From NCBI GenBank assembly GCA_963788485.1, contig CAWBIS010000206.1, positions 22,301 through 86,300 of the forward strand: a stretch of 64,000 nucleotides of DNA. Direction: 5' to 3'. The notes under the pieces are model-generated. The model saw only the letters and a program-made list of their open reading frames with translations, was not told the DNA's origin and did not search any database. Shown here piece after piece: positions 1 through 14,764 of this stretch. Each line of letters opens with the position of its first letter. Position 1 is the first letter of the stretch. Made by a program: the position numbers and the translations under genes. This DNA comes from Terriglobia bacterium. Its GTDB lineage: Bacteria; Acidobacteriota; Terriglobia; Bryobacterales; Bryobacteraceae.

Positions 1-695
1 TGGCCGCCGTTCTGGAAACACGCTTACATCAGGCGCAGACCGAGCCCATGGCGCCCATCGATCTGATCTCCTGCCTGATCTCCGATGAACTCACACGCCG
101 CGCCGATCGACTGCTGGAACGCCGCCGGAAGCAAGCCGGGTTTCGCGACGCCAACCGCTCGCTCGACGGTTTCGACTTCACCTTCAACCCGAAGATGAAT
201 CGCAGTCTGGTGTTCGACCTTGCCGCGTGCGCCTTCATCGCACGGCGCGAGGACGCTTTGTTTCTCGGCCCCGGGGGCACGGGCAAGAGTCATCTGGCGC
301 AGGCTATCGGCCAGTGCGCCATTCTGCAGGGTTATCGCGTCATCTATCGCGAAGCGCACGTGCTGTTGGAAGAACTCGCCGATGCCGTGGCCGAGAATCG
401 GCGTAAGTCTTACATCGAATCTCTGGCCTCTGTGCCGCTGCTGATCATCGACGACTTTGGCATGCGCAGACTGCCGCTCACCGCGGCCGAAGATCTGCTG
501 GAAATCGTCATGCGCCGTTACGAGCGCGCCAGCACACTGTTGACGTCGAATCGTCCGGTGGAAGACTGGGGCAAACTCCTCGGTGATACCGCGGCAGTCA
601 GCTCGATGCTCGACCGGCTGCTGCACCACGGCCATGTTCTCAAGTGCGGGCCGCGCAGCTGGCGCACCAAAGCCCTGCCTGCGAGCGCTGCATGA
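1..695 (+). CDS. istB: IS21-family transposition helper ATPase IstB (5' end probably outside the window)
   Basis: The frame is open from the window edge (AAVLETRLHQAQTEP precedes the first ATG at 48). Walker A is LGPGGTGKSHLA and Walker B is LLIIDDFG. The C-terminal LLTSNRPVEDWG...DRLLHH matches the IstB/DnaC-like family. Confidence 0.9.
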   Translation, partial: AAVLETRLHQAQTEPMAPIDLISCLISDELTRRADRLLERRRKQAGFRDANRSLDGFDFTFNPKMNRSLVFDLAACAFIARREDALFLGPGGTGKSHLAQAIGQCAILQGYRVIYREAHVLLEELADAVAENRRKSYIESLASVPLLIIDDFGMRRLPLTAAEDLLEIVMRRYERASTLLTSNRPVEDWGKLLGDTAAVSSMLDRLLHHGHVLKCGPRSWRTKALPASAA

Positions 696-1820: not shown

Positions 1821-3146
1821 TCAGGTTCCGGGGCCCGCCCGAATCGAGATTTTACGATAAATGTCGAGGTGTTCCATAACCCTCCGACTGCCGGATCGAC
1901 AGTCGATCCCCATTCGACAATGTTGTTCTTGCCCGTCCGAAGCGGTTCGCTGTTGGTCGGCTTCCATTGGCAGACGCCGAGCTGCGCGAATGCCATCGAA
2001 GGTGCAACGGCCAGAACGATGAGAGTCAGGACGGAGACGACGCGCGCGCTGCGGATTTCCAATGGTCCTCCTCGTGAGCAGGGTGCTTGCACTTGGAGCG
2101 TAATCGCCCGTATCTGAAGCCTCGGGTATCGTAATCATGACGACGGAACGGAGGTCCACCCAGTTCTTAACTAAGCTTTCTATAGTCCGCGAGACCACAT
2201 CGAAGCCGTCGTGCGTAGGATTCAGGAGCACGCCTGGGATTTCACCTCCACGGATATCGACAATACTCTCGCCCTCTGGACTTTTCTGCAAATACAGATA
2301 CGGTGCGTATGCGACAATCTCGTGCACCGGGATACCACCAGGAGAAACTCGATCCAGGAGAAGCCCACGCACTGAGCCGGGTGCATCGTACACGTACAAG
2401 TGAAGCAGGGAATCCAGGTCAACTGTTCGATCAGAGAACTCAAGCCGGTTTCGCATCTGCTCAAGATTCTCCTTCAACCGTCTTAATTGGTAATCGCTGA
2501 TTATGTGTTTCGATTTCGGCGATATGACGAAGAGATAAGTATCCACCTCGCACCCGACAAGTCGCCGAACGAGATCAAGCGCATTCACGCCAGTGTACTG
2601 AATTACATAAGCTTTCCTCGTTCCGGCCGGCTGGGCATTGTTACTCAGATACTGATGCACCTGGTCCGCGAGAGACGCGTTGATATCGAACACAATTGCG
2701 GACTGGCGCCGGACGATGATCTCGAACAAACTCCCGAGCACAAGACGCGCGATTTCGTAGGGTTCGCTCCATGTTTGTGTTGTGTGTCGTCGCATCAGAT
2801 CGTGCACGAACTGTTGTTGAAGAGGATCACTTTCGGTACTCGAAGCATACTTGACAAAGACGATAATCGAGATGCCAAGCCTAACGGCTTCGTGATACTC
2901 CAATTCAACATAGGATTTACCTGATTCCTCGACGGTATCACCGTACCTGAAGCCTGCCATTAAGACGAAAAACTGACATGTGGCGAGCTTCTCGACGATT
3001 CGTTCCGTCGGCCGAGCGCTCGTTGCCGCCCAGTTCTCCATCGAAACAGGTGTACAGTTTGCAGCAAGCACTGCCCGGATCGCCTCAGCTCGTTCCGGCG
3101 CGAGATCGGACGTTGAACTGATGAAGACTCTATAATCACCCTTCAT
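1821..3146 (-). CDS. DUF4062-type (TIR/nucleoside-deoxyribosyltransferase-like fold) N-terminal domain protein with an uncharacterised C-terminal region
   Basis: The N-terminus YRVFISSTSDLAPERAEAIRAVL...CQFFVLMAGFRYG...SYVELEYHEAV...IIVFV matches the DUF4062 pattern from memory. The body (about 2137-3146) is visibly more AT-rich than its flanks. The last ~100 codons are Arg-rich and overlap another ORF's signal-peptide region, so the true 3' end is uncertain. Confidence 0.6.
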   Translation of the reverse strand: MKGDYRVFISSTSDLAPERAEAIRAVLAANCTPVSMENWAATSARPTERIVEKLATCQFFVLMAGFRYGDTVEESGKSYVELEYHEAVRLGISIIVFVKYASSTESDPLQQQFVHDLMRRHTTQTWSEPYEIARLVLGSLFEIIVRRQSAIVFDINASLADQVHQYLSNNAQPAGTRKAYVIQYTGVNALDLVRRLVGCEVDTYLFVISPKSKHIISDYQLRRLKENLEQMRNRLEFSDRTVDLDSLLHLYVYDAPGSVRGLLLDRVSPGGIPVHEIVAYAPYLYLQKSPEGESIVDIRGGEIPGVLLNPTHDGFDVVSRTIESLVKNWVDLRSVVMITIPEASDTGDYAPSASTLLTRRTIGNPQRARRLRPDSHRSGRCTFDGIRAARRLPMEADQQRTASDGQEQHCRMGIDCRSGSRRVMEHLDIYRKISIRAGPGT

Positions 3147-3348: not shown

Positions 3349-4695
3349 TCAGGCGGGTCGAGAATCGGCCCTGCGGTACAGTCTGTTTTCGATTTCCTCA
3401 ATCCACCTGCCTTCCTTACCTTGCCGGTCCCGATTCTCTCGAATCAGCTTTAAATTATCCGCCGTAGTCCTTGCACGGAAAAGCTCATCCCCAACCAACG
3501 GCAACGCATCCGCGAGGTGAGTCTCCGCCGCTTTCTTGTCATCGGCAAGAACCGCCAGTTCGAGCAAAGTCGCGTGGTCCCAGTAATCCGCACTCGCGGC
3601 CGCCTTCCGCGACGCGGCATAACGAACCACCGGAAGAATCGCAGCCTGACGGGGGTCCGGAGCCTCGGCCAGTTCCATCAGCGTGACCGCATTCACGCCG
3701 GGATACGCGTCCCGCCAATCCGCTTCGAAACCATCGAGGTAACAATCGATCGCCAGCTTCAGACAACCTCGCGCCATCAGGAAATCTCCCTCCGCCAGCG
3801 CAGCCCTATACCGATCCTTATAAACCCGGCCCAGTATCCCGTTCGTCTCGGGACTCGCGCCGTACTCCCTGATCACCTCTTTCAAAACCTTCTCCGCATC
3901 CTTCCACCGACCCGCCCGATTCAGCGCCAGCCCGAATTGCTCCCGCATCATGCGAACACGCTGCAGCGGGCGGGGCAACTCGTCGTAAAACTTCACCATT
4001 TCGCCGAAGGCCTCGACCGCGCGGAACGACAGAAATATCTGAATCACCACTCCCGATTCCACGTCCGCCAGATTCCCCAGGCTCTTCCGAATCGCCTGGA
4101 TGTCGGCGAGCCCGTGAGCCCCTTTCGCCGCAGCGTCGGAAAGCCGCCGGCGCACCTGGTTCGAGTGCTCCACCACCTTGCGGAAGATATCGGTCTTTGA
4201 ATGGTCGAGCCGCGGCCGAGGCAGATCCACCAGGAAGTTGTACACAGGACTGTCGTCCACGCACTGCCGCGCTTCTTCCAGCCTCTTGCTGAGCAGGTCG
4301 ATAAACCCCGGTGCATTTTTCATGCTGTAGGGAATGCCCCTCAGCGGGGCCACATCGAACGGCAGCACCGACCCTTCCTGAAAGATCACCACCGTACTGT
4401 AAGGCCGCAGGGCATGGCGGATTCCCAGCTCATAAAACACGTTCGGATTTTCGCCCGTCAGGTCCGCCACCGCATAGTCGCACAGCATCAGGCGCTCGAA
4501 CATCGGCTTGTGAATCCACCCGCCCACCAGTTCTTCGTCGGCCCGCACCGGTTCCATGTCCGCGGCGGCGATCGCCGGTTCGATCAGCTTTTTATACGCG
4601 GCGTCGAAATCGCGCAGCTTACCCGCGGAGTCCTTCTTCTTCCCGAACGGCATCAATACGAAGCAGAGGGGGCGCACAGGACCCCAGCATCGCAC
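3349..4695 (-). CDS. TIR-fold (nucleoside 2-deoxyribosyltransferase-like) N-terminal domain fused to a DUF4071 / MAP3K(ASK)-TRAF-binding-type TPR region
   Basis: N-terminus is CFVLMPFGKKKD...DFDAAYKKLIEPAI...CDYAVADLTGENPNVFYELGIRHAL. The helical repeat C-terminus is ...GILGRVYKDRY...AIDCYLDGFE...YPGVNAVTL. Start is ambiguous: GTG 4695, GTG 4677 or ATG 4653. Confidence 0.65.
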   Translation of the reverse strand: MRCWGPVRPLCFVLMPFGKKKDSAGKLRDFDAAYKKLIEPAIAAADMEPVRADEELVGGWIHKPMFERLMLCDYAVADLTGENPNVFYELGIRHALRPYSTVVIFQEGSVLPFDVAPLRGIPYSMKNAPGFIDLLSKRLEEARQCVDDSPVYNFLVDLPRPRLDHSKTDIFRKVVEHSNQVRRRLSDAAAKGAHGLADIQAIRKSLGNLADVESGVVIQIFLSFRAVEAFGEMVKFYDELPRPLQRVRMMREQFGLALNRAGRWKDAEKVLKEVIREYGASPETNGILGRVYKDRYRAALAEGDFLMARGCLKLAIDCYLDGFEADWRDAYPGVNAVTLMELAEAPDPRQAAILPVVRYAASRKAAASADYWDHATLLELAVLADDKKAAETHLADALPLVGDELFRARTTADNLKLIRENRDRQGKEGRWIEEIENRLYRRADSRPA

Positions 4696-5885
4696 AAATT
4701 ACAGATCGAAGACCGCGGGGAAATGCTGCTGCCGGACGAGTGCTTCCGCGGCTTTGCGGCCAATTTCGATAGCCGCTTGGCGTTCTCAGGACGGTCGATG
4801 TGCCTCAGGTCCCGAACTTCGTCCGGAGAAACCTCCAGTCCCAGCCGCTCCCGGAACCAATCGCGTTCGATCGGTGCGTCGTACCGCAGGTAATGCAGCA
4901 GGTTCTTCCCTCCCGGCAGGTCCCCGGAGCGGTCCCCCACCTCGCGGTTGATCCGAAGCGCGGTGGGCGACGAGCTCATCCGCTGCAACACGGCCTGCGC
5001 CAGCCAACTCGAATCGTTCATCGCCGAAAACAGCGCCTCGACCGCGAACTCCGCTGCCGACTCGCCGCGATATGACCGACCCCACAGCGGCGCGGGCTGC
5101 GAAGCGCCGGTTCCCAGGGAAAGCAGCATCGGATTCTCCTCGCCGATTCGGCCCTCGGAAGCCGTAGCCCTGCAACGTGGCCGGCATCGGCAGGAGCAGC
5201 GACGGGTTGTTGTGCGGGCCGACTCCGCCATCCGCGAACAGACCTTCCATGCCCGGCGCCACTTCCAGCAGCTGCAGCCCAAAATATGGCGGGGCGGCCG
5301 TGCCCGCGCGCAGCAGGTTTGCGATTTTGATATCGCGGTTTGGCGTGTGAGTACCCGCGGGGGATGACGCCCCGATAAACGCCCCATTCGGGTGATTGTG
5401 GAACAGCCAGACGCTGCCGGTATCCAGCCGTTTCGTAACGATGGCGAGCCCGCAGGCGACGCGGTCCGAACCCGGCGTATCCGGCCCGAACTCTCGGAGG
5501 ATGGCCTCACGCAGCGCTTCGTCGTCGAATTTGGGCATGAAGGCGCCGCCGAACCATTGAACCATTTGAGCCCGAACCATTCGCGGCGGACGAACGATTC
5601 GTGGGAGATGTGGAGGTAGAGGTCGATCAGTTCCGTGACGGTGTGGCCGATCGCCAGGCCGGCGGCAACGATGGCGCCGGTGGACGTGCCGCCGATCAGG
5701 GAGACGTAGTGGCAGAGGAGGAAATCGAGATATTGAGCAGGCGGAAGACGGGACTGCAGGAGGGCTTCGATGCGTTCGAGGAAGGCGAGGGAGATGACGC
5801 CGCGGACGCCCCCGCCATCGAGGGAAAGGATGCGCTTCGGGCCGGAGTCGAAGAGGTGATGGTGACGGAGTGCGGCCGGGCTCAT
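4653..5885 (-). pseudogene. Patatin-like phospholipase interrupted by two compensating frameshifts
   Basis: Frame A (5885 to ~5570) has DGGGVRG (oxyanion hole) and GGTSTGA (GxSxG). Frame B (~5570 to ~5150, inside ORF 4786-6345) has FGGAFMPKFDDEAL...FADGGVGPHNNP (catalytic DGG). Frame A resumes with RIGEENPMLLSLGTGAS... and runs to the stop at 4653. Shift 1 lies in a GAACCATT x3 cluster at 5551-5581. Shift 2 lies at about 5145-5165. Confidence 0.8.
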
Positions 5886-8791
5886 CAGTGCATCGCTTCG
5901 AGACAGCGCTGGTGGTTGGCTGCGAAGAGTTTCGTATTGGGATGTTCCGGTCCGAGAACTCGAAGGGCAGCTTCGAGAGCGCGGCGGTAGAGAGGCTCGG
6001 CGGCGGCGTAATCCCCCTGGCTCGCCAGCAGGTGCGCCAGATTGTTGACCGAAGCGAGGGTATCGGGATGCTCGGGCCCCAGCACGCGCTCCCTGGCCTC
6101 GAGAGCGCGGCGGTAGAGAGGCTCGGCGGCGGCGTAATCCCCCTGGCTCTCCAGCAGGTACGCCAGATTGTTGACCGAACCGAGGGTATCGGGATGCTGG
6201 GGTCCCAGCACGCGCTCCCTGGCTTCGAGAGCGCGGCGGTAGAGAGGCTCGGCGGCGGCGTAATTCCCCTGGCTCTCCAGCAGGCCCGCCAGATTGTTGA
6301 CCGAAGTGAGGGTATCGGGATGCTCGGCTCCCAGCACGCGCTCACTGGCTTCGAGAGCGCGGCGGTAGAGAGGCTCGGCGACGGCGTAATCCCCCTGTCT
6401 CTCCAGCAGGTACGCCAGATTGTTGACCGAACCGAGGGTATCGGGATGCTCGGGTCCCAGCACGCGCTCCCTGGCTTCGAGAGCGCGGCGGTAGAGAGGC
6501 TCGGCGGCGGCGTAATCCCCCTGGCTCGCCAGCAGGCCCGCCAGATTGTTGACCGAACCGAGGGTATCGGGATGCTCGGGTCCCAGCACGCGCTCCCTGG
6601 CTTCGAGAGCGCGGCGGTAGAGAGGCTCCGCGGCGGCGTAATCCCCCTGGCTCGCCAGCAGGCCCGCCAGATTGTTGATCGAAGTGAGGGTAGCGGGATG
6701 CTCGGGTCCCAGCACGCGCTCCCAGGCTTCGAGAGCGCGGCGGTAGAGAGGCTCGGCGGCGGTGTAATCCCCCTGACTCTTCAGCAGGTACGCCAGATTG
6801 TTGACCGAACCGAGGGTATCGGGATGCTCGGGTCCCAGCACGCGCTCACAGGCTTCGAGAGCGCGGCGGTAGAGAGGCTTGGCGGCTGCGTAATCCCCCT
6901 GTCTCGCCAGCAGGCCCGCCAGATTGTTGACCGAAGTGAGGGTATCGGGATGCTCGGGTCCCAGCACGCGCTCCCAGGCTTCGAGAGCGCGGCGGTAGAG
7001 AGGCTCGGCGGCGGCGTAATCCCCCTGGCTCTCCAGCATGCCCGCCAGATTGTTGACCGAACCGAGGGTATCGGGATGCTCGGCTCCCAGCACGCGCTCC
7101 CTGGCTTCGAGAGCGCGGCGGGCTGCCTCCGAGCCCTTGCGGTAGCTTCCGGCGTGGCGAAACGCGCTGGCCAGTTCCCCCCAGATCTTTGCCTGTAATT
7201 CTCTCTCGACCAAATCGCATCCGGCCAATGCGCGCGAATGGCTGACCAGTCCGGCCCAGATACGCTGGCTTTCGCGATCCCACGAGGGCGCCGGCGTCGC
7301 ACGAAAGTACATCTCGGCCGCTCTTTGCGCAACTTTCCCGGCGCGGTCGCCCATCTCGTGCCGTTCCACCGCCTGCACCAGCGCATGGACTAAAATGCAT
7401 CCGCCCGACTCCTGCTTCGCCATCGAATATCGCAGCAGGCTTTCCTTCCAGTCGCGAACGGCTTCCTCATCGGGAACATCCGTCGCCGCCTCTGCCGCCA
7501 GTTGTTCCGCCCCGGCAATATAGAGGCTGACGGGGAACGGTGTCGGCGCGAAGAATGCGTGCAGCCGCAACATCGCGCGCGCACCGGCCGGCAGCGCATC
7601 AAGTGTCGTCCTCCAGGTCAGATAAACCGAATCCGGATAGTCCGTCGCGCCCGGCGTCCGCCTCTTCAGATAATGTCGCTCATTTACCTCAAATCGCCGC
7701 GAATAGTCCGCAAACCCGACCTCGGGATGCTGCGCCACATATGCTGCCGCCTGCTCCAACGCCAACGGCAGGTACTGCAGTTTCTCCGCCACCCGATCCG
7801 CCGCCGCTTCCTCGCCCGCAATCCCTGCCCGCTCGCCGCGCCGGAGCAACAGCTCCCGCGCCGGCTCCGGGTCCAGTACCCAAACCGGATGCGTGGCAAT
7901 CCCCTCCGACCACTCCGTAAAGCGCGAAGTAATCAGCACGTGGCAATTCCCGGAAGCCGGGAGCCAGGGAAGAACGGACTTCTCATTCTCGGCGTTGTCG
8001 AGAATCAGCAGCCTCTGTTCCGAATACGGCTGCTCCAGTTCCTGTTTGGCCCGTTTGGCGCGAATCTCGACCTTAACGGCTTGCTCCTGTCCCGGGTTCA
8101 GCAGGTCGTAAATCTCCGCGAACCCGGTCTCCAGACCGGTGCGGCAATCCACCCAGAACATCTGGCGATAGCAGCGCCAGAACTTCTCCGCATAATGGCG
8201 CGCCAGGGTGGTCTTGCCGATGCCGCCCAGCGCCGGAAGCGCGATCACGCTGCCCTGCGTCAGCGCCGTCGGCCGGCTCAGAAACAGCTTCTCGTGCAGT
8301 TCGACCATGGTTGGGTCACGCCCGACGAAATGCTCGATCGGACGGTGTTTCAGGAGGGTTGCCCGGCCTTTTTCCCCACGCACGGGCCGCGGCTCATCGC
8401 GATAGGTCTGCAGGCGTGCGATCAACCGCTCCCAGTCGGAGGAGGTGGCGGACTCGTAAACCACCAGATCGCTCTGAAAGATTGAGAGGGGCGGCGTGAC
8501 CGCTTCCGTCCACGTGCCCCGAAGCAGCAAAGGAACCACGCGCGCCGCGCCGTAGGTTTCATAACGAGTCCAGAGCGAATTTTTCCATTGCGGCGTCAGT
8601 AGAGGAATCACGATGCGGCTGGCCTCGCAATGCCGTTCGATCTCCTCATGCCAGCGCATTTCGGGTGCGAGATAGGCCTTGTCCCACCAGACCTTGAAAC
8701 CTGCCGCAGTCAGGCGCGCGTGGATTTCTTCGGCCACGGCAGCATCTTCAGAACAATAGCTCAGGAAGCAATCGTAATATTCGGGAAACAC
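5885..8791 (-). CDS. TIR - NB-ARC (STAND NTPase) - TPR repeat protein
   Basis: TIR domain: YDCFLSYCSEDAAVAEEIHARLTAAGFKVWWDK ... NSLWTRYE (candidate catalytic Glu). NB-ARC domain: Walker A GGIGKTTLA (8207-8227), Walker B LLILDNAE, HVLITSR and YLPLALEQAA (GLPLAL-like). About ten 42-aa kinesin-light-chain-type TPR units follow (YRRALEARERVLGPEHPDTLGSVNNLAGLL.SQGDYAAAEPL). GTG start. Confidence 0.9.
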   Translation of the reverse strand: MFPEYYDCFLSYCSEDAAVAEEIHARLTAAGFKVWWDKAYLAPEMRWHEEIERHCEASRIVIPLLTPQWKNSLWTRYETYGAARVVPLLLRGTWTEAVTPPLSIFQSDLVVYESATSSDWERLIARLQTYRDEPRPVRGEKGRATLLKHRPIEHFVGRDPTMVELHEKLFLSRPTALTQGSVIALPALGGIGKTTLARHYAEKFWRCYRQMFWVDCRTGLETGFAEIYDLLNPGQEQAVKVEIRAKRAKQELEQPYSEQRLLILDNAENEKSVLPWLPASGNCHVLITSRFTEWSEGIATHPVWVLDPEPARELLLRRGERAGIAGEEAAADRVAEKLQYLPLALEQAAAYVAQHPEVGFADYSRRFEVNERHYLKRRTPGATDYPDSVYLTWRTTLDALPAGARAMLRLHAFFAPTPFPVSLYIAGAEQLAAEAATDVPDEEAVRDWKESLLRYSMAKQESGGCILVHALVQAVERHEMGDRAGKVAQRAAEMYFRATPAPSWDRESQRIWAGLVSHSRALAGCDLVERELQAKIWGELASAFRHAGSYRKGSEAARRALEARERVLGAEHPDTLGSVNNLAGMLESQGDYAAAEPLYRRALEAWERVLGPEHPDTLTSVNNLAGLLARQGDYAAAKPLYRRALEACERVLGPEHPDTLGSVNNLAYLLKSQGDYTAAEPLYRRALEAWERVLGPEHPATLTSINNLAGLLASQGDYAAAEPLYRRALEARERVLGPEHPDTLGSVNNLAGLLASQGDYAAAEPLYRRALEARERVLGPEHPDTLGSVNNLAYLLERQGDYAVAEPLYRRALEASERVLGAEHPDTLTSVNNLAGLLESQGNYAAAEPLYRRALEARERVLGPQHPDTLGSVNNLAYLLESQGDYAAAEPLYRRALEARERVLGPEHPDTLASVNNLAHLLASQGDYAAAEPLYRRALEAALRVLGPEHPNTKLFAANHQRCLEAMH
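5930..7140. repeat. Tandem 126-bp DNA repeats (about 10 units) encoding the TPR array
   Basis: The motif gagagcgcggcggtagagaggctcggcggcggcgtaatccccctg recurs at 5975, 6101, 6227, 6353, 6479, 6605, 6731, 6857, 6983 and (degenerate) 7109. The period is exactly 126 bp and nucleotide identity between units is high. Confidence 0.9.
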
Positions 8792-10486
8792 CTATTTCGC
8801 TCCCAGGTTGGCCGAAAGCTTTCGTTCGCGATGCATGGCCAGCCAGTCCGCGCTTTCGGCCAATGAATGGCAGCCCAGTTCCCGCAGGGTCTCCTCACAT
8901 TTGCCGAACTCTCCGTTGGATTCGAATTCCTCCAGATCCCGGTCGGCATCGTGAAACAAAGTGTGCATCTGTGCGTACTGCCGGGCCTCCTGCGTGAAGC
9001 CCCGGCGCTCGACGTAATCACACGCCAGCGCCGCCCACCACATGGCGACCGGAGCGGTGACTGCAGTCCACTCGCCGAAAGTGAAAAACCGGTTCAGCAG
9101 CGGCAGGGCGAGCCCGGTGATTCCGGCGATGGTGGCCAGAATATGGAAGGCGAGCTTTTTGCGCTTATGGCGCCTGCCGGTTTTCAGGAAATAGTTCCTC
9201 TGACTGACGACCCATTCGCGAGCCAGACGCAATCGGCCGGCGAGTCCCTCAATTTGCGCCGGACTCAGGCTGAGGACGCCCTCATACAGTGCGCATTCGC
9301 TGATGGCGTCGCGGATCCAGACCATTTCTCCGGCCTGTTTGCGAAGGTACTTATCGGCTGCGAGGTCGGGGAGGCCGGCCACCATCCAGAAAAACTGGAC
9401 ACGAAGGGCTTCCGCCAGTGCCCGGTAATCTTCGTGGCGGCCCCGCAGTTCGGCCCTTCGTTCGAGGAGAATAGGCAGGGCCGCAGCGGCGAGACAGGCG
9501 TAGTAGCCGTAAAGCAAATCGTTTTGGCCAGAGATATGGGAAAGCGCCAGGAACAGCCCCGCGAACGCCAGCATGACAAAGGCGAACTGCCAGCTGAGAA
9601 GACCGCGTTCGGCATAGCGGATGGCAAGGGCGTCGGCGCGCGAATAGGCCCCCATCACCCATTTCATAGCGGGCGTGAGGCCCACCGGTTCGCCTTTGGG
9701 GAACAGGTCCCTGCGGCTTCTGGCGACTGCTTTTGGGAAGTCTTTGCCGGCCTGGGCGACGTCCGCGTTGAACTTATCGAGCAAAAGGTAGCAGGCGTGA
9801 TAACCCGCCCATGTGGTCCCGTGGGGGACAGCTTCCTCGCATTTGAGCGCGGGAGTGGCGGAATGCCCGGATCCCGGAGTTCGGGCGGGGATGATGTATA
9901 CCGGGCCCGCGCCTTCGGCGTTGATTCGCGACCGGGAGAGGCGGTGATGGCGACTGTCTCGCCGGAGTTTCATGTCCACGACATCTGTGGCACCGCCTTC
10001 CTTGCGCGCGCGATCCCGGTCCCAGATGGCAATGAGGATCTGGCTGTAACGCACCAGGTATTCGCCGAGAAGGCGGTACTGATGTGCCCGCGGCTCGCCT
10101 GCAAGCCGAACCATCTCCGGGGTGACTCCGGGAGCAAGGGGCAGAGTGATGCATCGGACCGCGCGGTCGCGCATTTCGCAGAATTCCCGGTCGCTCGCTT
10201 CACTGGCGAATTCAGTGCGATAGAGATCTTCCGGCATGGGGAGGATCGCAGCGTAAGAAACCGCGATTTCCTTTTCCTGCGCCACGCGCACGGCGATTCG
10301 GTCGGCGCCTTCGGCCAGGCCGGAAAGCAGCAGGATCGGGGTATGGCGGTAGGCGTGTTTTAGTTTCTTAAAAATGACGCGGATTTCGGTTTCGTAACGC
10401 GGAATATCCTCGTCGATTAGTTTGAGGTGCCCGGTCACGGCTACCACCAGGGAGAGTGAGCCCTTTGTGAAGTCCTCGCTGGCCAT
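8792..10486 (-). CDS. SLOG (LOG/DprA/YpsA-like Rossmannoid) domain protein fused to two tandem 2-TM modules (SLATT/LSDAT-like)
   Basis: N-terminus is LVVAVTGHLKL...ILLLSGLAEGADRIAVRVAQE...ILIAIWDRDRARKEGGATDVV, a YpsA/LOG-like pattern. TM pair 1 is LLSWQFAFVMLAFAGLFLAL / LLYGYYACLAAAALPILL, followed by ELRGRHEDYRALAEALRVQFFW. TM pair 2 is LAFHILATIAGITGLALPLL / WTAVTAPVAMWWAALACDYV, preceded by QRNYFLKTGRRHKRKK. Confidence 0.6.
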   Translation of the reverse strand: MASEDFTKGSLSLVVAVTGHLKLIDEDIPRYETEIRVIFKKLKHAYRHTPILLLSGLAEGADRIAVRVAQEKEIAVSYAAILPMPEDLYRTEFASEASDREFCEMRDRAVRCITLPLAPGVTPEMVRLAGEPRAHQYRLLGEYLVRYSQILIAIWDRDRARKEGGATDVVDMKLRRDSRHHRLSRSRINAEGAGPVYIIPARTPGSGHSATPALKCEEAVPHGTTWAGYHACYLLLDKFNADVAQAGKDFPKAVARSRRDLFPKGEPVGLTPAMKWVMGAYSRADALAIRYAERGLLSWQFAFVMLAFAGLFLALSHISGQNDLLYGYYACLAAAALPILLERRAELRGRHEDYRALAEALRVQFFWMVAGLPDLAADKYLRKQAGEMVWIRDAISECALYEGVLSLSPAQIEGLAGRLRLAREWVVSQRNYFLKTGRRHKRKKLAFHILATIAGITGLALPLLNRFFTFGEWTAVTAPVAMWWAALACDYVERRGFTQEARQYAQMHTLFHDADRDLEEFESNGEFGKCEETLRELGCHSLAESADWLAMHRERKLSANLGAK

Positions 10487-10603: not shown

Positions 10604-10632
10604 ATTATCCCGGAGAGGGCTTTACTTGTCGA
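10604..10632 (-). promoter_or_regulatory. sigma70-like promoter candidate for the SLOG/TIR operon
   Basis: The minus strand reads TCGACA-N17-GATAAT (-35 at 10627-10632, -10 at 10604-10609), about 120 nt upstream of ATG 10486. Confidence 0.3.
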
Positions 10633-10774: not shown

Positions 10775-10905
10775 GTGGCGGATTACAGGTATAGCACGCA
10801 CGCGGTGTTCGATTTGCAGTATCACGTGCTCTGGTGTACAAAGTACAGATACAAGATACTGCGCGGTCGAGTGGCGGAGTTGCGCGCACGAGCGTTGAGC
10901 CGGGC
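10775..10905 (+). pseudogene. N-terminal remnant of an IS200/IS605-family Y1 transposase (TnpA)
   Basis: YSTHAVFDLQYHVLWCTKYRYKILRGRVAELRAR matches the conserved N-terminus including the HxxYHxVW.TKYR motif. Similarity is lost after ~43 codons, and the catalytic HUH/Tyr parts are absent. Confidence 0.6.
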
Positions 10906-11176: not shown

Positions 11177-14005
11177 GTGCTTCTATCCATTGTCAGGGCG
11201 GCAATCGTTCCGATCAAGCTCCTGTTTGGGTTTGACGCCTTCGTTTCCTACTCGCGCCGGGACGGAGCCAATTACTCTGAAGCCTTGGAACGGGAACTCG
11301 CCCGCCATATCTCTCCCCGCATGGACATCCAAGAGAGCAGGGCGGGCGAGACTATTCCACTGGGGCTAAAAATCAGCATAGCGTTCAGCAAAGTTTTTAT
11401 CCTAGTCGCTACCAGCGGCGCGTCGGACTCCAGGCATATCGAAGCCGAAGTCCTAACGTTTAAGAAATGGAGCAACGGCCCCATCATTCTCATCCAGCTT
11501 CCTGCCCCCGACGGGGAGGCCGTCTGGCGGACATATTTTAAAGGCCTCCCCGTCCTCGCGGAGACTGATCACAATCGAAGTTCCGGCCACCCTTCGGACT
11601 GCGTAATTCAGCGCATCCTAAATAATGTCGGCTATTGGCGCCGCAGCCGCCGGCAACGCCTCGCGACCACAGTTTTAACAATTGTGCTCGCCACTTTGGG
11701 AATTCTAGTAAGAAGTGCCTACGTTTCGCTGGGCCGAGCCACGACCGAAGCCAGAGCCCAACAAAGGGCTGCGCGAACCGCCAAAAGCGAAGCCGAGGCA
11801 GCCACCCAAGAGACCGCTCGCCAAGTCACAAATCTACGCGCAGCGGAGCGCGCTCGCGACAAGGCGAACGAAGCGCAGAGCAAAGCTGAAAGATTGACCG
11901 CCCAGAGTTCCGCCCGATACACGGAGGCCCTGTCGAAGTATCTTGCGATCAAGGCAGCTGACCCGGACGCGCCCCAGTTGCCGCTTTTTATCGAGTCCGT
12001 GCTTCGGAAGCCGGTCGATACGGGAGTAAGCGGGCTCATGACGCGCATCCCGCTTCAGCGGCGCATCATTGCGACGCTCCCGCACGCGGAGTCTTTGAAC
12101 GCCGTCGCGTTCAGCCCGGACGGCAAGACCCTCGCTACCGCCAGCAATGTGACCACGTGGCTGTGGGATGCTGTTTCCGGCCAGCTTCGCGCCACCCTTC
12201 AGGACGGTGGCGCCCGTGGCGCCGTCTCCGCCGTCGCTTTCAGCCCAGACGGCAGGACCGTTGCCACAGTTGACGGCTGGTCAACGCGACTGTGGGATAC
12301 CTCGACCGGTCGGCTCCGCGCGACCTTTGAGAGCGTACTGGCAGGCGCTGTTGCCTTCAGCCCTGACGGCAAAACCCTCGCTACGGTTTGGGCGGCATCC
12401 GACGTGCGTCTGTTGGATTTAGCCTCGAGACAGCCCGACGTCGCCCTCGGACACCACCAATCAAACGTAACTGCGATCGCATTTAGTCCGGACGGCAAGA
12501 CCGTCGGCACATCGAGTCTCGATCGGACCGCGCGGCTGTGGGATGCCTCCTCTGGACAGCTTCGGGTAACCCTTCAGCACCAAGGTGCTGTTTACGCCCT
12601 CGCTTTCAGCCCCGATGGCAGGGAGGTCGCCACGGGCGACGACAGCGCCGCACGGCTGTGGGATGCCGTTTCCGGCCAGCTTCGCGCCACCCTTCAACAA
12701 AAAGGGATTGTCCACGCTGTTGCCTTCAGCCCTGACGGCAGAATCGTCGCCGCGGGCGTCGACAACACCGCACGGCTATGGGATGTCGCCTCCGGCGAAC
12801 CGCGCGCCGCCCTTGAGCACCGAAACATCGTTCGCGCCATTGCCTTTAGCCCGAATGGAAAGATCATCGCGACGGCCGACGACAGGACAGCCACGCTGTG
12901 GGACGCCTCGTCTCGTGATCGCAGTGCGATCCTCCCGCAAAGCCTTAGCGCCGTAGCATTCAGCCCTGATGGTAAAACAGTCGCTACAGGCAATAGCGAC
13001 AATGCCGTGCGACTTTGGGATGCCGTCTCCGGCCAAATAGGAGTTACCCTTCAGCAGCGGTCGATCGTCTTAGCAGTCGCCTTTAGCCCGGACGGTAAGA
13101 CCGTCGGGACTCCGGACGGTCCCGTCTCGAGGCTGTGGGATGCCGTCTCAGGCAAGCCCCGCGTCACGCTCCCGCACGCCCCGTGGCCCCTCTGCGCCCC
13201 CGCCTTTAGCCCTGATAGCAGGATCGTCGCTACCGCCGATCTGGATAACGCTGCGCGGCTTTGGGATGCCTCTTCCGGCCAACTACGCGCTACCCTCCCG
13301 CACAAAGGCAACGTGGTCGCTGTCACCTTCGGCCCGGAAGGCAAAACCGTCGCCACCGCCAGTCTTGACAAGACCGCGCGGTTGTGGGATGCGTCTTCCG
13401 GCCAACTGCGCGCAACCCTCCAACACCAAGATTCCGTGCGCGCGGTGGCCTTCAGCCCGGACGGCAAGACTGTCGTAACCGCCAGTGACGACAAGACCGC
13501 GCGGCTTTGGGATGCGTTTTCCGGCGAACTGCGCGCAACCCTCCAACACCAAGATCGCGTGCGTGCGGTGGCCTTCAGCCCGGACGGTAAGACTGTCGCA
13601 ACCGCCGGTGACGACAAGACCGCGCGGCTTTGGGATGCGTTTTCCGGCCGGCTCCGCGCCGCCCTCCAGCACCAAGCCGGCGTGACAGCCGTTGCCTTCA
13701 GCCCGGACGGTAACACTGTCGCCACCGGGAGCTATGACAAGACTGCGTGGCTGTGGGATGTCGAGACCGGTCAGCCCCGTGCCGATCTTCAGTACCACGG
13801 CGCCGTCTACGCCGTCGCCTTTAGCCCGGATGGCAAGACTTTACTCGTGTCGTCCGACCGTGAGGCGCAGCTCTATCTTTACCATCCTGCAGACCTTATC
13901 GAGGCCGCTTGCGACTTCCTGCCATTCAATCTCACGCCGGCGCAATGGAAGATTTATTTGCCGGACGAGCCCTACAGAAAGACCTGCCCGAGAATTCGTA
14001 ACTGA
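11177..14005 (+). CDS. TIR - single TM - coiled coil - 15x WD40 repeat protein
   Basis: TIR domain: FDAFVSYSRRDGANYSEALERELAR ... SRHIEAEVLTF. The basic stretch WRRSRRQR is followed by TM helix LATTVLTIVLATLGILV (about 11660-11725) and an Ala/Glu/Arg-rich coiled coil (about 11732-11926). Fifteen units of AVAFSPDGKTVATAS.DKTARLWDA.SGQLRATLQH follow. GTG start. Confidence 0.85.
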   Translation: MLLSIVRAAIVPIKLLFGFDAFVSYSRRDGANYSEALERELARHISPRMDIQESRAGETIPLGLKISIAFSKVFILVATSGASDSRHIEAEVLTFKKWSNGPIILIQLPAPDGEAVWRTYFKGLPVLAETDHNRSSGHPSDCVIQRILNNVGYWRRSRRQRLATTVLTIVLATLGILVRSAYVSLGRATTEARAQQRAARTAKSEAEAATQETARQVTNLRAAERARDKANEAQSKAERLTAQSSARYTEALSKYLAIKAADPDAPQLPLFIESVLRKPVDTGVSGLMTRIPLQRRIIATLPHAESLNAVAFSPDGKTLATASNVTTWLWDAVSGQLRATLQDGGARGAVSAVAFSPDGRTVATVDGWSTRLWDTSTGRLRATFESVLAGAVAFSPDGKTLATVWAASDVRLLDLASRQPDVALGHHQSNVTAIAFSPDGKTVGTSSLDRTARLWDASSGQLRVTLQHQGAVYALAFSPDGREVATGDDSAARLWDAVSGQLRATLQQKGIVHAVAFSPDGRIVAAGVDNTARLWDVASGEPRAALEHRNIVRAIAFSPNGKIIATADDRTATLWDASSRDRSAILPQSLSAVAFSPDGKTVATGNSDNAVRLWDAVSGQIGVTLQQRSIVLAVAFSPDGKTVGTPDGPVSRLWDAVSGKPRVTLPHAPWPLCAPAFSPDSRIVATADLDNAARLWDASSGQLRATLPHKGNVVAVTFGPEGKTVATASLDKTARLWDASSGQLRATLQHQDSVRAVAFSPDGKTVVTASDDKTARLWDAFSGELRATLQHQDRVRAVAFSPDGKTVATAGDDKTARLWDAFSGRLRAALQHQAGVTAVAFSPDGNTVATGSYDKTAWLWDVETGQPRADLQYHGAVYAVAFSPDGKTLLVSSDREAQLYLYHPADLIEAACDFLPFNLTPAQWKIYLPDEPYRKTCPRIRN
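12070..13880. repeat. Tandem ~123-bp DNA repeats encoding the WD40 blades
   Basis: The 41-aa blade period is visible at DNA level. Units between about 13330 and 13740 are near-identical (gacaagaccgcgcggctttgggatgcgttttccggc...gccttcagcccggacggtaagactgtcg). Confidence 0.85.
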
Positions 14006-14445: not shown

Positions 14446-14521
14446 TGGTGAGCCGGGCGGGGCTCGAACCCGCGACCACCGCATTAAAAGTGCGATGCTC
14501 TACCAACTGAGCTACCGGCTC
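14446..14521 (-). tRNA. tRNA-Lys (anticodon TTT)
   Basis: The reverse complement GAGCCGGTAGCTCAGTTGGTAGAGCATCGCACTTTTAATGCGGTGGTCGCGGGTTCGAGCCCCGCCCGGCTCACCA folds as a cloverleaf with anticodon loop CTTTTAA and an encoded CCA. Confidence 0.95.
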
Positions 14522-14677: not shown

Positions 14678-14764
14678 GCGGATGTGGCGAAACTGGCAGA
14701 CGCGCCAGATTTAGGTTCTGGTTTCCGAAAGGAAGTGAAGGTTCAAGTCCTTTCATCCGCACCA
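14678..14764 (+). tRNA. tRNA-Leu (anticodon TAG), class II with a long variable arm
   Basis: GCGGATGTGGCGAAACTGGCAGACGCGCCAGATTTAGGTTCTGGTTTCCGAAAGGAAGTGAAGGTTCAAGTCCTTTCATCCGCACCA has an anticodon arm CCAGA-TTTAGGT-TCTGG, a variable stem TTCC/GGAA and an encoded CCA. Confidence 0.95.

What the first reader, a model, noticed from the sequence alone, without database searches (positions are those of the whole stretch)
8792..10486. SLOG domain fused to two tandem 2-TM modules: possible ligand-gated membrane effector
Seen in sequence:
- aa 12-200 have the YpsA/LOG-like pattern (VAVTGH..., SGLAEGADRIA, AIWD....EGGATDVV).
- aa ~276-365 and ~425-515 each consist of a polar helix, two hydrophobic helices and a conserved-looking amphipathic helix (YRALAEALRVQFFW, and QYAQMHTLFHDADRDLEEF).

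Established knowledge: SLOG domains bind nucleotide-derived ligands (ThsA, the TRPM N-terminus). SLATT/LSDAT 2-TM modules have been predicted as pore or membrane-perturbing effectors associated with SLOG and SMODS.

Inference: this would be a ThsA analogue in which the SIR2 effector is replaced by a duplicated 2-TM effector.
Basis: partly seen in the sequence, partly recalled or inferred. Interest (0 to 1): 0.75.

Follow-up and report, generated by a model that had tools for sequence, protein, structure and literature searches.

The report
Nucleotide-sensing membrane effector beside TIR-NLR
This gene encodes an inner-membrane protein with a cytoplasmic nucleotide-binding (SLOG) head and two pairs of membrane helices (SLATT modules); it is butted against a TIR-NLR-like gene and most likely acts as the membrane-damaging receiver of a TIR-made NAD-derived alarm signal, a predicted but untested relative of Thoeris anti-phage systems.

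Summary
The ORF (window 8792-10486, minus strand, 564 aa) is real. It has a SLOG domain of the YpsA/YAcAr/DprA clade (aa ~12-200) and two SLATT-type 2-TM hairpins (aa ~272-369 and ~415-554). This rests on near-threshold Pfam hits that recur across the family, a confident AlphaFold model (pLDDT 86) and Foldseek (best solved match YpsA).

It belongs to a large unnamed family: at least 4,171 clusters at 50% identity, found in many phyla, all annotated "hypothetical". No solved structure, PADLOC or PHROG model matches.

In the window its stop codon abuts the start of a TIR-NB-ARC-TPR gene. A broken patatin gene and a DNPH1-like/TPR-S gene follow.

Across 68 distant loci, a TIR gene with the catalytic Glu intact is the only recurrent neighbour: 15 adjacent plus one in-frame TIR-NB-ARC-TPR-SLOG-SLATT fusion (adjacent vs distal odds ratio 11, p = 6e-8). 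About three quarters of family members have no adjacent TIR.

Best reading: a Thoeris-like receiver that combines the SLOG sensor logic of types I and III with the SLATT effector of type VII, here paired with a STAND-type TIR.

The architecture was anticipated computationally, so I rate it a new variant of a known kind. Function is untested.

The parts
8792..10486 (-). SLOG-2xSLATT gene (564 aa), the finding itself
   Evidence: ORF. Over 155 full-length homologues. 4,171 clusters at 50% identity with E<=1e-30. AF2 pLDDT 86.
9887..10453 (-). SLOG domain, aa ~12-200 (YpsA/YAcAr/DprA clade); predicted cytoplasmic nucleotide-ligand sensor
   Evidence: Pfam YAcAr E 3.9e-6; 29/49 members hit YAcAr and 9/49 hit DprA. 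Foldseek finds YpsA 2nx2 (E 8e-5), DprA, ShosA and LOG, and phage DprA-like/YAcAr proteins. Near-invariant G19 H20, A58 G60 A61 D62, W155, G164 T166.
9380..9673 (-). First 2-TM module, aa ~272-369: TM1 ~299-319, TM2 ~324-344, then the near-invariant amphipathic helix DYRALAEALRVQFFW
   Evidence: NCBIfam SLATT_3 aa 280-362, E 0.025. DUF4231 in 16/49 and SLATT_3 in 6/49 members. AF2 helices 272-319, 322-345, 347-369. Invariant R355, A358, E359. Hydrophobicity conserved across the family.
8825..9244 (-). Second 2-TM module, aa ~415-554: TM3 ~446-466, TM4 ~474-494, then two cytoplasmic helices ending in the conserved E544/W548/H552/R553 motif
   Evidence: Pfam SLATT_1 aa 426-512, E 1.6e-5; 14/49 members hit it. 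AF2 helices 415-468, 473-495, 497-523, 527-554. Invariant columns.
5885..8791 (-). TIR-NB-ARC-TPR (STAND/NLR-like) gene, 968 aa; predicted sensor and signal generator
   Evidence: Pfam TIR_2 aa 9-102 (E 6.6e-17), NB-ARC aa 179-354, ten TPR_10/12 repeats. The GTG start follows the TAG stop of the SLOG-SLATT gene with no gap. Glu78 aligns with a Glu present in all 28 aligned TIR domains.
4653..5885 (-). Patatin-like phospholipase gene, disrupted by two frameshifts; its ATG overlaps the upstream stop by 1 nt. Possible second, now broken, effector
   Evidence: Patatin hits split over two frames. PADLOC phospholipase effector E 1e-21. 8-nt tandem duplication at 5551-5566 and a second shift at 5132-5158.
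3349..4695 (-). DNPH1/Rcl-like (TIR-related N-glycosidase fold) + TPR-S / MAP3K_TRAF_bd protein, 448 aa; same strand, last clear member of the cluster
   Evidence: Pfam MAP3K_TRAF_bd E 8e-31 and TPR-S E 7e-23. PADLOC 'Effector TIR' E 7e-10. PDB Rcl/DNPH1 E 0.003. An orthologue lies directly downstream of the SLOG-SLATT homologue in L055 (E 3e-59).
10604..10632 (-). Promoter-like site (TCGACA-17-GATAAT) about 118 nt upstream of the ATG
   Evidence: It is a consensus match only: 2 sites found against 1.3 expected in shuffles.
11177..14005 (+). Divergently oriented TIR-(TM helix)-coiled coil-WD40 protein, 942 aa; a second TIR-bearing candidate sensor in the island
   Evidence: TIR_2 aa 22-109, E 1.6e-5. 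13 WD40 repeats. Hydrophobic stretch at aa ~165-186 read from the translation.

Best explanation
The protein is an inner-membrane receiver and effector of a TIR-based immune signalling module.

Shown by computation:
- It has a cytoplasmic SLOG domain of the YpsA/YAcAr/DprA clade on top of two SLATT-type helical hairpins, with N and C termini in the cytoplasm.
- It is the first gene of a tightly packed same-strand cluster whose second gene is a TIR-NB-ARC-TPR STAND protein with the catalytic Glu intact.
- Across phyla the family's one recurrent partner is a TIR protein carrying a variable sensor region.

Inferred mechanism:
1. The TPR (or, in other loci, WD40, SH3 or STAND) part of the TIR protein detects infection.
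2. The STAND module oligomerises and brings the TIR domains together.
3. The TIR domains convert NAD+ into an ADP-ribose-derived messenger, such as a cADPR isomer.
4. The messenger binds the SLOG pocket, which is formed by the G-H loop, the AEGAD helix cap and the GGT loop.
5. This changes the packing or oligomeric state of the conserved juxta-membrane helices (DYRALAEALRVQFFW and E..W...HR).
6. The four TM helices then breach or depolarise the membrane, stopping growth before phage release.

The patatin and DNPH1-like/TPR-S genes downstream may be additional effectors, or independent systems in the same island.
For: Domain identities.

Topology with K/R-rich cytoplasmic flanks.

Operon junctions: TAG|GTG with no gap, and a 1-nt stop/start overlap between the TIR gene and the patatin gene.

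TIR association in 68 GTDB loci, mostly 26-33% identical (L001 53%):
- Pfam TIR_2 in 8/64 downstream and 7/62 upstream neighbours. It is the top family in both lists; everything else is lineage-specific synteny.
- A local iterated TIR HMM gives the same 15 adjacent genes plus 1 fusion. Adjacent 15/126 against distal 8/680, odds ratio 11.4, p = 6e-8.

Fusion: L034 (Gimesia) has one 1,604-aa ORF, TIR-NB-ARC-TPR-SLOG-2xSLATT, with no stop at the junction. Its TIR is the closest relative of the window's TIR (E 8e-36).

Close homologues (42-53% identity) recur with TIR-nSTAND1 and patatin: P0015, P0024, P0035. P0015 lies beside a type III CRISPR locus.

Partner TIRs all keep the catalytic Glu (28/28) and carry diverse sensor regions. 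That is the Thoeris logic.

Precedents in the literature:
- SLOG of ThsA binds 3'cADPR.
- Type VII Thoeris pairs a TIR with a SLATT effector and uses cADPR.
- Type II uses a TM effector (bioRxiv 10.64898/2025.12.03.692087).
- Type III uses a DprA-type SLOG effector with several TIR proteins (PMC13276650).
Against: - No adjacent TIR in about 76% of the loci surveyed.
- The closest homologues, P0003 and P0004 (67% identity), and P0010 sit among housekeeping genes in conserved synteny.
- No PADLOC model matches, and there are no plasmid or phage copies.
- TIR domains on STAND proteins are usually taken to be NAD+-depleting effectors, not signal generators.
- The in-frame fusion in L034 would not need a diffusible messenger.
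- One family member is fused to a histidine kinase (L066), which suits a transducer better than a pore.
- All individual Pfam hits in the query are just below the gathering cut-off.
- No ligand, toxicity or defence data exist.
Confidence: 0.55

Rival explanations
1. Autonomous nucleotide-gated membrane protein. The family senses an endogenous metabolite, such as NAD+, ADPR or another nucleotide whose level changes under stress or NAD+ depletion, and adjusts membrane permeability on its own. TIR adjacency in a minority of genomes would be secondary recruitment into defence islands. In the window, the TIR on the STAND protein would be a plain NADase whose product (ADPR) or NAD+ loss is merely sensed downstream.
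For: - 52 of 68 loci lack an adjacent TIR.
- P0003/P0004 keep the same housekeeping neighbours (Oxidored_molyb, lactonase-like) in different samples. P0010 and P0017 also lack a TIR.
- The family is very large and vertically spread over many phyla, with no phage or plasmid copies.
- YpsA, the best structural match, is a housekeeping SLOG protein linked to NAD/ADPR binding (PMC6459960).
Against: - The adjacency enrichment (p = 6e-8), the tight coupling in the window and the in-frame fusion are hard to explain by chance co-location.
- Orphan receivers could still respond to TIR genes encoded elsewhere in the genome, which was not tested.
Confidence: 0.2
2. The SLOG domain is an enzyme rather than a sensor. 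In this reading it is a membrane-tethered N-glycosidase or ADPR-derivative-processing enzyme that makes, matures or degrades the TIR product, for example to set a threshold and prevent autoimmunity. The TM region would only anchor it.
For: - LOG-clade SLOG domains are N-glycosidases, and SLOG domains in conflict systems have been proposed to act as signal generators or processors as well as sensors (PMC9503650, PMC6459960).
- Polar residues are near-invariant at the predicted pocket: H20, D62, T166.
- The cluster also encodes a DNPH1-like N-glycosidase-fold protein.
Against: - The Glu of the LOG 'PGGxGTxxE' catalytic motif is not conserved after the family's GGT loop (consensus GGTxxVV).
- The most conserved parts of the protein are the juxta-membrane helices of the SLATT modules, not just the SLOG. 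That is unexpected for a passive anchor.
- SLATT modules are effector domains in CBASS, type VII Thoeris and DRT10 contexts (10.64898/2025.12.03.692087; 10.64898/2026.04.29.721553).
Confidence: 0.1
3. Non-lethal transmembrane signal transducer or scaffold. Ligand binding to SLOG would be relayed through the four-helix membrane module to partner proteins such as STAND, kinases or patatin, without forming a pore. It might also tether the TIR-STAND complex to the membrane.
For: - L066 (Bacteroidales) carries the whole SLOG-2xSLATT unit fused to HisKA + HATPase_c.
- Some variants have a 120-140 aa insert in the outer loop between TM1 and TM2, which could be an extracytoplasmic sensing domain.
- The L034 fusion physically joins it to the STAND protein.
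Against: - Only one kinase fusion was seen among hundreds of members.
- The outer loops are 4-15 residues in most members, leaving no room for an external sensor.
- The precedent for SLATT modules is as toxic effectors.
Confidence: 0.1

Closest known systems
Type I Thoeris effector ThsA (SIR2-SLOG) with ThsB (TIR)
   Same: Same two-gene logic: a TIR protein next to an effector whose SLOG domain is the receptor for the TIR-made ADPR derivative. The partner TIRs keep the catalytic Glu.
   Different: - The output domain is two SLATT hairpins instead of a SIR2 NADase.
- The SLOG belongs to the YpsA/YAcAr/DprA clade. ThsA is not among the top 50 structural matches, and there is no PADLOC ThsA hit.
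- Domain order is reversed: the SLOG is N-terminal.
- The TIR partner is a STAND NTPase.
Type VII Thoeris effector ThsH (SLATT protein; cADPR signal), bioRxiv 10.64898/2025.12.03.692087
   Same: A TIR gene beside a SLATT-domain membrane effector. Membrane breach on binding of the signal is the proposed mechanism.
   Different: - ThsH is described only as a SLATT protein whose ligand pockets are predicted between SLATT protomers. No SLOG domain is reported.
- Here a separate SLOG head and two SLATT modules sit in one chain.
- That survey removed TIRs found in Avs/STAND proteins, so this pairing was outside its scope.
Type III Thoeris (van den Berg et al. 2024; several TIR proteins plus an effector with an SMF/DprA-type SLOG), as summarised in PMC13276650
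   Same: Same SLOG clade: 9/49 family members hit Pfam DprA, and Foldseek finds DprA. The same island also holds several TIR or TIR-like genes: 5885-8791, 11177-14005, 3349-4695 and 1821-3146.
   Different: - The effector matches no NCBIfam Thoeris type III model at E<=0.1.
- The window's TIRs hit ThcB4 only at 27 bits against a cut-off of 220.
- The papers read here do not describe a SLATT/TM output for type III. The primary paper was not available.
SLATT effectors of CBASS/SMODS systems and the SLOG-SLATT associations predicted by Burroughs et al. 2015 (NAR 43:10633)
   Same: [quoted passage not shown]
   Different: - Still a prediction only.
- This specific full-length family (YAcAr-type SLOG + DUF4231/SLATT_3-like + SLATT_1-like modules) has no dedicated model in Pfam, NCBIfam, PADLOC or PHROGs.
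- The 2015 paper could not be read here, so whether it drew this exact tandem architecture is from memory and unverified.
B. subtilis YpsA (PDB 2nx2) and DprA
   Same: Best structural matches to the N-domain. The motif pattern is shared: xTGH/Y after strand 1, an acidic helix cap after strand 2, and a W/Y-D after strand 5.
   Different: YpsA and DprA are soluble proteins acting in cell division and in ssDNA handling. They have no TM module and no TIR context.
TRPM2 (ADPR-gated cation channel with an N-terminal SLOG-like MHR1/2 domain)
   Same: Same design principle, a SLOG-fold ADPR sensor on a membrane permeability device. There are weak whole-chain Foldseek hits (8sra E 0.026, probability 0.38).
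   Different: No detectable homology of the membrane parts. TRPM has a 6-TM tetrameric channel. The match is not significant, so this is an analogy only.
Plant TIR-NLR to EDS1 to helper-NLR Ca2+ channel pathway
   Same: In both, a STAND-embedded TIR makes a small NAD-derived signal that is read by a separate protein acting at the membrane. For this locus that is inferred.
   Different: The receptor and effector are unrelated in sequence and fold. The bacterial case is entirely untested.

Membership tests
SLOG superfamily (YpsA/YAcAr/DprA clade) | Rossmannoid three-layer alpha/beta fold with a parallel sheet, structurally matching known SLOG proteins | tested here: met
   AF2 strands 13-19, 51-55, 77-82, 111-114, 150-155 and 196-200 with intervening helices. 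Foldseek: YpsA E 8e-5 (TM 0.64), then DprA, ShosA, MCP and LOG. Viral DprA-like/YAcAr proteins E 1.5e-6 to 1e-4.
SLOG superfamily (YpsA/YAcAr/DprA clade) | Profile match to a curated SLOG family at its gathering threshold | tested here: inconclusive
   YAcAr scores 27.0 bits against a cut-off of 28.2 in the query. At E<0.01, 29/49 members hit YAcAr, 9/49 hit DprA and 1/49 hits YpsA.
SLOG superfamily (YpsA/YAcAr/DprA clade) | Conserved Gly-rich or polar loops after strand 1, at the helix cap after strand 2 and after strand 5, forming the nucleotide pocket | tested here: met
   G19 H20, L57 A58 G60 A61 D62, W155, G164 T166 are invariant or at least 90% conserved. Their position in the pocket is inferred, because model coordinates could not be inspected.
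SLOG superfamily (YpsA/YAcAr/DprA clade) | Binds a nucleotide-derived ligand | not testable with these tools
   Needs binding assays.
SLATT (2-TM effector) family | Profile match to SLATT-family models | tested here: inconclusive
   Module 2: SLATT_1 25.4 bits against a cut-off of 26.3; NCBIfam SLATT_1 E 0.0017. Module 1: NCBIfam SLATT_3 E 0.025. Family-wide: DUF4231 16/49, SLATT_1 14/49, SLATT_3 6/49. The hits are consistent but individually sub-threshold.
SLATT (2-TM effector) family | Helical hairpin of two TM helices with a very short outer loop, flanked by cytoplasmic helices | tested here: met
   AF2 helices. Conserved hydrophobic segments with K/R-rich inner flanks, and outer loops of about 4 and about 15 residues.
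SLATT (2-TM effector) family | Two modules arose by internal duplication | tested here: inconclusive
   hhalign of module 1 against module 2: E 1.3e-3, probability 18%, aligning TM2+DYR with TM4+RQY. Weak cross-hits of the module HMMs.
SLATT (2-TM effector) family | Membrane permeabilisation or toxicity on activation | not testable with these tools
   Needs expression and membrane-potential assays.
Thoeris-type TIR signalling system | TIR-domain gene adjacent to the effector gene, conserved across relatives | tested here: met
   Zero-gap junction in the window. 15 adjacent genes plus 1 fusion in 68 loci, odds ratio 11.4, p = 6e-8 (Pfam counts). This holds for only about 24% of loci.
Thoeris-type TIR signalling system | TIR retains the catalytic glutamate | tested here: met
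   Glu78 of the window TIR lies in a column that is Glu in 28/28 aligned TIRs.
Thoeris-type TIR signalling system | Match to models of known Thoeris effectors (ThsA and others) | tested here: not met
   No PADLOC hit for the effector. No NCBIfam Thoeris model at E<=0.1. Sequences of the newer ThsD and ThsH effectors were not available.
Thoeris-type TIR signalling system | TIR produces a signalling molecule that activates the effector; the system defends against phage | not testable with these tools
   Needs LC-MS of infected lysates and plaque assays.
Avs/bacterial NLR-like STAND with TIR (the partner gene) | N-terminal TIR + NB-ARC/STAND NTPase + C-terminal repeat sensor | tested here: met
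   TIR_2 aa 9-102, NB-ARC aa 179-354, DUF7779 aa 397-482 and TPR_10/12 x10.

The most novel reading that the evidence does not exclude
A bacterial TIR-NLR (TIR-NB-ARC-TPR) does not simply burn NAD+. On activation it emits a diffusible NAD-derived messenger that opens a dedicated SLOG-gated, SLATT-based membrane pore. That would be a prokaryotic counterpart of the plant TIR-NLR to helper-channel relay.

The very large and mostly 'orphan' SLOG-2xSLATT family (at least 4,000 clusters at 50% identity) would then be a general receiver for TIR signals made in trans. This class was missed by published Thoeris surveys because they excluded STAND-embedded TIRs.
Probability: 0.3. Interest if true: 0.75.

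Novelty: new variant of a known kind. Interest (0 to 1): 0.55.

Why it matters
If the reading is right, three consequences follow.

1. TIR domains embedded in bacterial NLR-like STAND proteins can act as signal generators feeding a separate effector, not only as terminal NADases. That changes how a very common class of bacterial immune genes is interpreted, and it tightens the parallel with plant TIR-NLR signalling.

2. It adds an effector type that joins the two halves already validated separately in Thoeris systems: a SLOG receptor and a SLATT membrane output. The family is large, phylogenetically broad and so far unannotated, and is found mainly in soil and freshwater phyla that defence-system screens under-sample.

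3. It gives a clean experimental handle on how SLATT modules, which have no solved structure, are gated by a ligand.

If the rival 'autonomous sensor' reading is right instead, the family would be a widespread nucleotide-gated membrane protein of unknown physiology. That is also worth knowing.

Tried and rejected
- **Shadow ORF.** The 498-aa ORF on the plus strand (8867-10363) overlaps the gene. I rejected it as a high-GC shadow, because the minus-strand product has hundreds of full-length homologues and a confident fold.
- **Solved relatives by sequence.** Single-sequence and profile searches of the PDB found nothing meaningful.
- **Fold match for the TM part.** Only non-significant ABC-transporter, TRPM and ClyA-type hits with rmsd above 20 A. 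No inference drawn from them.
- **PADLOC and PHROGs.** No match for the effector.
- **Mobile-element carriage.** tblastn against 72,556 plasmids and 50,697 phages found nothing.
- **Other conserved neighbours.** All-vs-all clustering of ORFs in 80 loci found no recurrent family apart from TIR. FBPase, secreted Por_Secre_tail proteins, Tll0287/HAMP and the rest are lineage-specific synteny.
- **Patatin as a conserved partner.** It recurs in 3 of 10 close-clade contexts (window). However, the patatins are not orthologous and none was detected in the 80 GTDB loci with those queries. I left this as a weak lead.
- **Internal duplication.** Profile-profile support is only weak.
- **Burroughs et al. 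2015.** I tried to read the paper to check whether this exact tandem architecture was drawn there, but it is not held.
- **Recent papers.** Two recent papers on STAND receptors and domain-centric defence discovery mention neither SLOG nor SLATT.
Full report

A 498-aa ORF on the opposite strand overlaps it. The minus-strand product, however, has more than 155 full-length homologues in the 5.8-billion-protein set. A profile of 49 of them recovers 4,171 clusters at 50% identity with E<=1e-30 and 9,193 with E<=1e-10. The best 150 are nearly all full-length matches, mostly 560-650 aa. The gene is therefore real, and the opposite-strand ORF is a high-GC shadow.

**2. Domain anatomy**

*SLOG domain.*
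- Pfam gives YAcAr ('YspA, cpYpsA-related SLOG family') over aa 14-76, E 3.9e-6, 27.0 bits against a cut-off of 28.2.
- Scanning all 49 aligned members one by one gives YAcAr in 29, DprA in 9 and YpsA in 1, so the assignment recurs across the family.
- AlphaFold2 on the 49-sequence alignment gave a confident model: mean pLDDT 86, pTM 0.86. It shows an alpha/beta domain over aa 13-200.
- Foldseek against the PDB puts B. subtilis YpsA first (2nx2, E 8e-5, TM 0.64 on the target). DprA, ShosA, the Moco carrier protein and LOG enzymes follow, all SLOG-superfamily folds.
- Against viral models the best matches are phage DprA-like and 'YspA cpYpsA-related SLOG' proteins.

*Membrane modules.*
- SLATT_1 matches aa 426-512 (E 1.6e-5, 25.4 bits against 26.3).
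- NCBIfam adds SLATT_3 over aa 280-362 (E 0.025).
- Family-wide, DUF4231 hits 16 members, SLATT_1 hits 14 and SLATT_3 hits 6.
- In the model a helical linker is followed by two similar units: helices 272-319, 322-345 and 347-369, then 415-468, 473-495, 497-523 and 527-554.

*Topology.*
- The four hydrophobic segments are conserved across the family, with mean Kyte-Doolittle values of 1.57, 1.16, 1.28 and 0.94.
- Their cytoplasmic flanks carry 2.3-5.1 K+R per 16 residues, and the outer loops are short.
- This fits N-in/C-in with two hairpins.
- The most conserved stretches of the whole protein are the helix just after TM2 (DYRALAEALRVQFFW; R355, A358 and E359 invariant) and the C-terminal E544-W548-H552-R553 motif.

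*Caveats.*
- Every curated-model hit in the query itself is just under threshold.
- Direct evidence that the two modules are duplicates is weak (hhalign E 1.3e-3, probability 18%).
- No dedicated TM predictor could be run.
- No solved structure is related by sequence, and nothing significant matches the membrane part by fold.

**3. Surroundings in the window**

- The TAG stop of the gene is followed immediately by the GTG start of a 968-aa TIR-NB-ARC-TPR protein at 5885-8791.
- That gene's stop overlaps by one base the ATG of a patatin-like phospholipase gene.
- A 448-aa protein follows on the same strand. Its N-domain resembles Rcl/DNPH1 N-glycosidases (PDB E 0.003) and its C-terminal part is TPR-S/MAP3K_TRAF_bd.
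- A DUF4062 protein comes next.
- Divergently upstream lies a TIR-WD40 protein.
- An IS200-like fragment, an IstB gene and two tRNA genes bound the region.
- The only promoter-like site near the gene lies about 118 nt upstream of its ATG, but such sites are not enriched over shuffles.

The target is therefore the first gene of a tightly packed cluster in what looks like an NLR-rich immune island.

**4. Comparative context**

*Distant relatives.* A pattern scan of one genome per GTDB species found at least 442 loci encoding relatives, in Acidobacteriota, Ignavibacteriota/Kapaibacteria, Planctomycetota, Verrucomicrobiota, Eremiobacterota, Gamma- and Deltaproteobacteria and others. I called ORFs in the best 80 loci and could place the homologue in 68.

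- Pfam scans of the immediate neighbours put TIR_2 at the top of both lists: 8 of 64 downstream and 7 of 62 upstream. Everything else was lineage-specific synteny.
- An independent iterated TIR HMM found the same 15 adjacent genes plus one fusion. TIR ORFs are 15 of 126 adjacent positions against 8 of 680 more distal ones (odds ratio 11.4, Fisher p = 6e-8).
- All-vs-all clustering found no other recurrent partner.
- The partner TIRs carry very different second halves: none recognisable, SH3, TPR, NACHT/NB-ARC-TPR, or NACHT-WD40. All keep the catalytic glutamate, 28 of 28 aligned.
- In a Gimesia MAG (L034) a single 1,604-aa ORF reads TIR-NB-ARC-TPR-SLOG-SLATT-SLATT with no stop at the junction. 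Its TIR is the closest relative of the window's TIR. This is a fusion of the two window genes in the opposite order.

*Closer relatives (42-67% identity).* The picture is mixed.
- P0015 is flanked by patatin and TIR-nSTAND1, next to a type III CRISPR locus.
- P0024 follows TIR and nSTAND1 genes.
- P0035 is followed by patatin and TIR-nSTAND1.
- P0045 has nSTAND1-ankyrin neighbours.
- P0003, P0004, P0010 and P0017 sit among ordinary genes.

The TIR link is therefore real and strong, but it holds for roughly a quarter of members.

**5. Most likely mechanism**

*Shown by computation.*
- A cytoplasmic SLOG head sits on two SLATT hairpins.
- The gene is tightly coupled to a catalytically competent STAND-embedded TIR.
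- The pairing recurs across phyla, and one locus has the two proteins fused.

*Inferred.*
1. The repeat sensor of the TIR protein detects infection.
2. STAND oligomerisation assembles the TIR active sites.
3. NAD+ is converted to an ADPR-derived messenger.
4. The SLOG binds the messenger.
5. The conserved juxta-membrane helices re-pack or oligomerise.
6. The TM helices breach the membrane.

*Precedents.*
- ThsA's SLOG binds 3'cADPR.
- Type II Thoeris uses a TM effector.
- The newly described type VII Thoeris pairs a TIR with a SLATT effector (ThsH) and uses canonical cADPR (bioRxiv 10.64898/2025.12.03.692087).
- Type III Thoeris uses a DprA-type SLOG effector with several TIR proteins (PMC13276650).
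[quoted passage not shown] 2015).

I put this explanation at about 0.55.

*Rivals.*
- An autonomous nucleotide-gated membrane protein, secondarily recruited next to TIRs (0.2). The many orphan members in conserved housekeeping synteny favour it.
- A SLOG that is an enzyme processing the signal (0.1). Against it, the LOG catalytic Glu is missing after the GGT loop, and the SLATT helices are strongly conserved.
- A non-lethal transducer or scaffold (0.1). One histidine-kinase fusion (L066) and variants with a large outer-loop insert hint at it.

**6. Comparison with what is known**

It works like a Thoeris effector, but it is not a member of any described effector family that I could test.
- There is no PADLOC, PHROG or NCBIfam Thoeris match.
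- ThsA is absent from the top 50 structural hits.
- It differs from ThsA in output domain, SLOG clade and domain order.
- It differs from ThsH in having a separate SLOG head and two SLATT modules.
- It differs from type III, as far as the papers read here describe that system, in having a membrane output.

The association of SLOG with SLATT is written into the domain's name and was predicted in 2015, so the kind is known. I could not read that paper and do not know whether this exact tandem architecture was drawn there. The 2025 Thoeris survey explicitly removed TIRs in Avs/STAND proteins, so the STAND pairing seen here was outside its scope.

**7. Verdict**

- Novelty: a new variant of a known kind. 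It is a large, unannotated, experimentally untouched SLOG-2xSLATT family that is a candidate receiver for TIR signals, notably from NLR-like TIR proteins.
- Interest: 0.55. A specialist would find it expected in outline, but it makes a specific question directly testable: do bacterial TIR-NLRs signal rather than merely deplete NAD+?

Noticed in passing
window 4653-5885 (-), especially 5551-5566 and 5132-5158: The patatin-like phospholipase gene is broken by two compensating frameshifts. The first is a perfect tandem duplication of the 8-mer AATGGTTC at 5551-5566; removing one copy restores the frame into the patatin middle region. The second shift lies between 5132 and 5158. The N-terminal GGGxRG/GxSxG part and the C-terminal part are in one frame, while the DGG (catalytic Asp) part is in another. 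This is either a pseudogene or an assembly error.
   Followed up: partly
window 3349-4695 (-); L055 9819-11153: The 448-aa protein has an N-domain resembling Rcl/DNPH1 2'-deoxynucleoside 5'-phosphate N-hydrolases (PDB 2klh E 0.003; PADLOC 'Effector TIR') and a TPR-S/MAP3K_TRAF_bd C-terminal part. Its orthologue (E 3e-59) lies directly downstream of the SLOG-SLATT homologue in a deltaproteobacterial MAG. A 'CMP hydrolase'/DNPH1-like domain is the reported effector of type VIII Thoeris, so this may be a second receiver or effector of the same signal.
   Followed up: partly
window 11177-14005 (+), TM-like stretch about 11669-11734: The divergent 942-aa protein has an N-terminal TIR (E 1.6e-5), then a hydrophobic stretch (LATTVLTIVLATLGILV, aa ~165-186), an Ala/Gln/Arg-rich stretch that looks like a coiled coil, and about 13 WD40 repeats. 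If the stretch spans the membrane, the propeller would be outside the cytoplasm, which would be unusual for a TIR sensor.
   Followed up: no
window 1821-3146 (-): A 441-aa protein with an N-terminal DUF4062 domain (E 4e-20), on the same strand just beyond the cluster. I recall DUF4062 being regarded as TIR-like, but did not check that here. The region also has lower GC (0.52-0.56 against about 0.61).
   Followed up: no
window 48-695 (+), 10775-10880 (+), 14446-14521 (-), 14678-14764 (+): An IstB (IS21 helper) gene, a truncated IS200-type transposase fragment (only the first ~35 aa match Y1_Tnp), and tRNA-Lys and tRNA-Leu genes bracket the TIR/SLOG-SLATT region. This suggests an insertion hotspot or mobile island.
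   Followed up: no
L034 4905-9719 (Gimesia sp. MAG): A single 1,604-aa ORF fuses TIR-NB-ARC-TPR to SLOG-2xSLATT. An in-frame Met lies just before the SLOG (..AHHMSQRLAFLIGVTGHRD..), so an internal start could also yield the free effector.
   Followed up: yes
L066 7968-10541 (Bacteroidales MAG): A family member is fused at its C-terminus to HisKA + HATPase_c (a histidine kinase). This is the only such case seen. It hints that the module can act as a transducer.
   Followed up: partly
P0062, P0063, P0065, P0067, P0071, P0121 (about 840 aa); P0143, P0168, P0222, P0257 (684-739 aa): The ~840-aa variants carry two tandem SLOG domains (each E about 1e-57 to 1e-64) before the two SLATT modules. The 684-739-aa variants have an insert of about 50-140 aa splitting the first module between TM1 and TM2, presumably an extracytoplasmic domain.
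   Followed up: partly
L034 1744-4869; L055 11320-14070: Large RyR-domain proteins (Pfam RyR E 1e-22 to 4e-39) sit next to the TIR/SLOG-SLATT genes in two unrelated genomes. L035 also has a related 111-aa fragment. The connection is unexplained.
   Followed up: no
L090 7849-8598; L093 7843-8721: SapC-family genes lie immediately next to the family member in two close-clade contexts that lack a TIR. In L093 the neighbours also include ankyrin and nSTAND1-ankyrin proteins and a phage-type integrase.
   Followed up: no
L087-L089 (contexts of P0015): The SLOG-SLATT, patatin and TIR-nSTAND1 trio lies beside a type III CRISPR-Cas (Cas10/Csm) locus, which is a defence-island setting.
   Followed up: no
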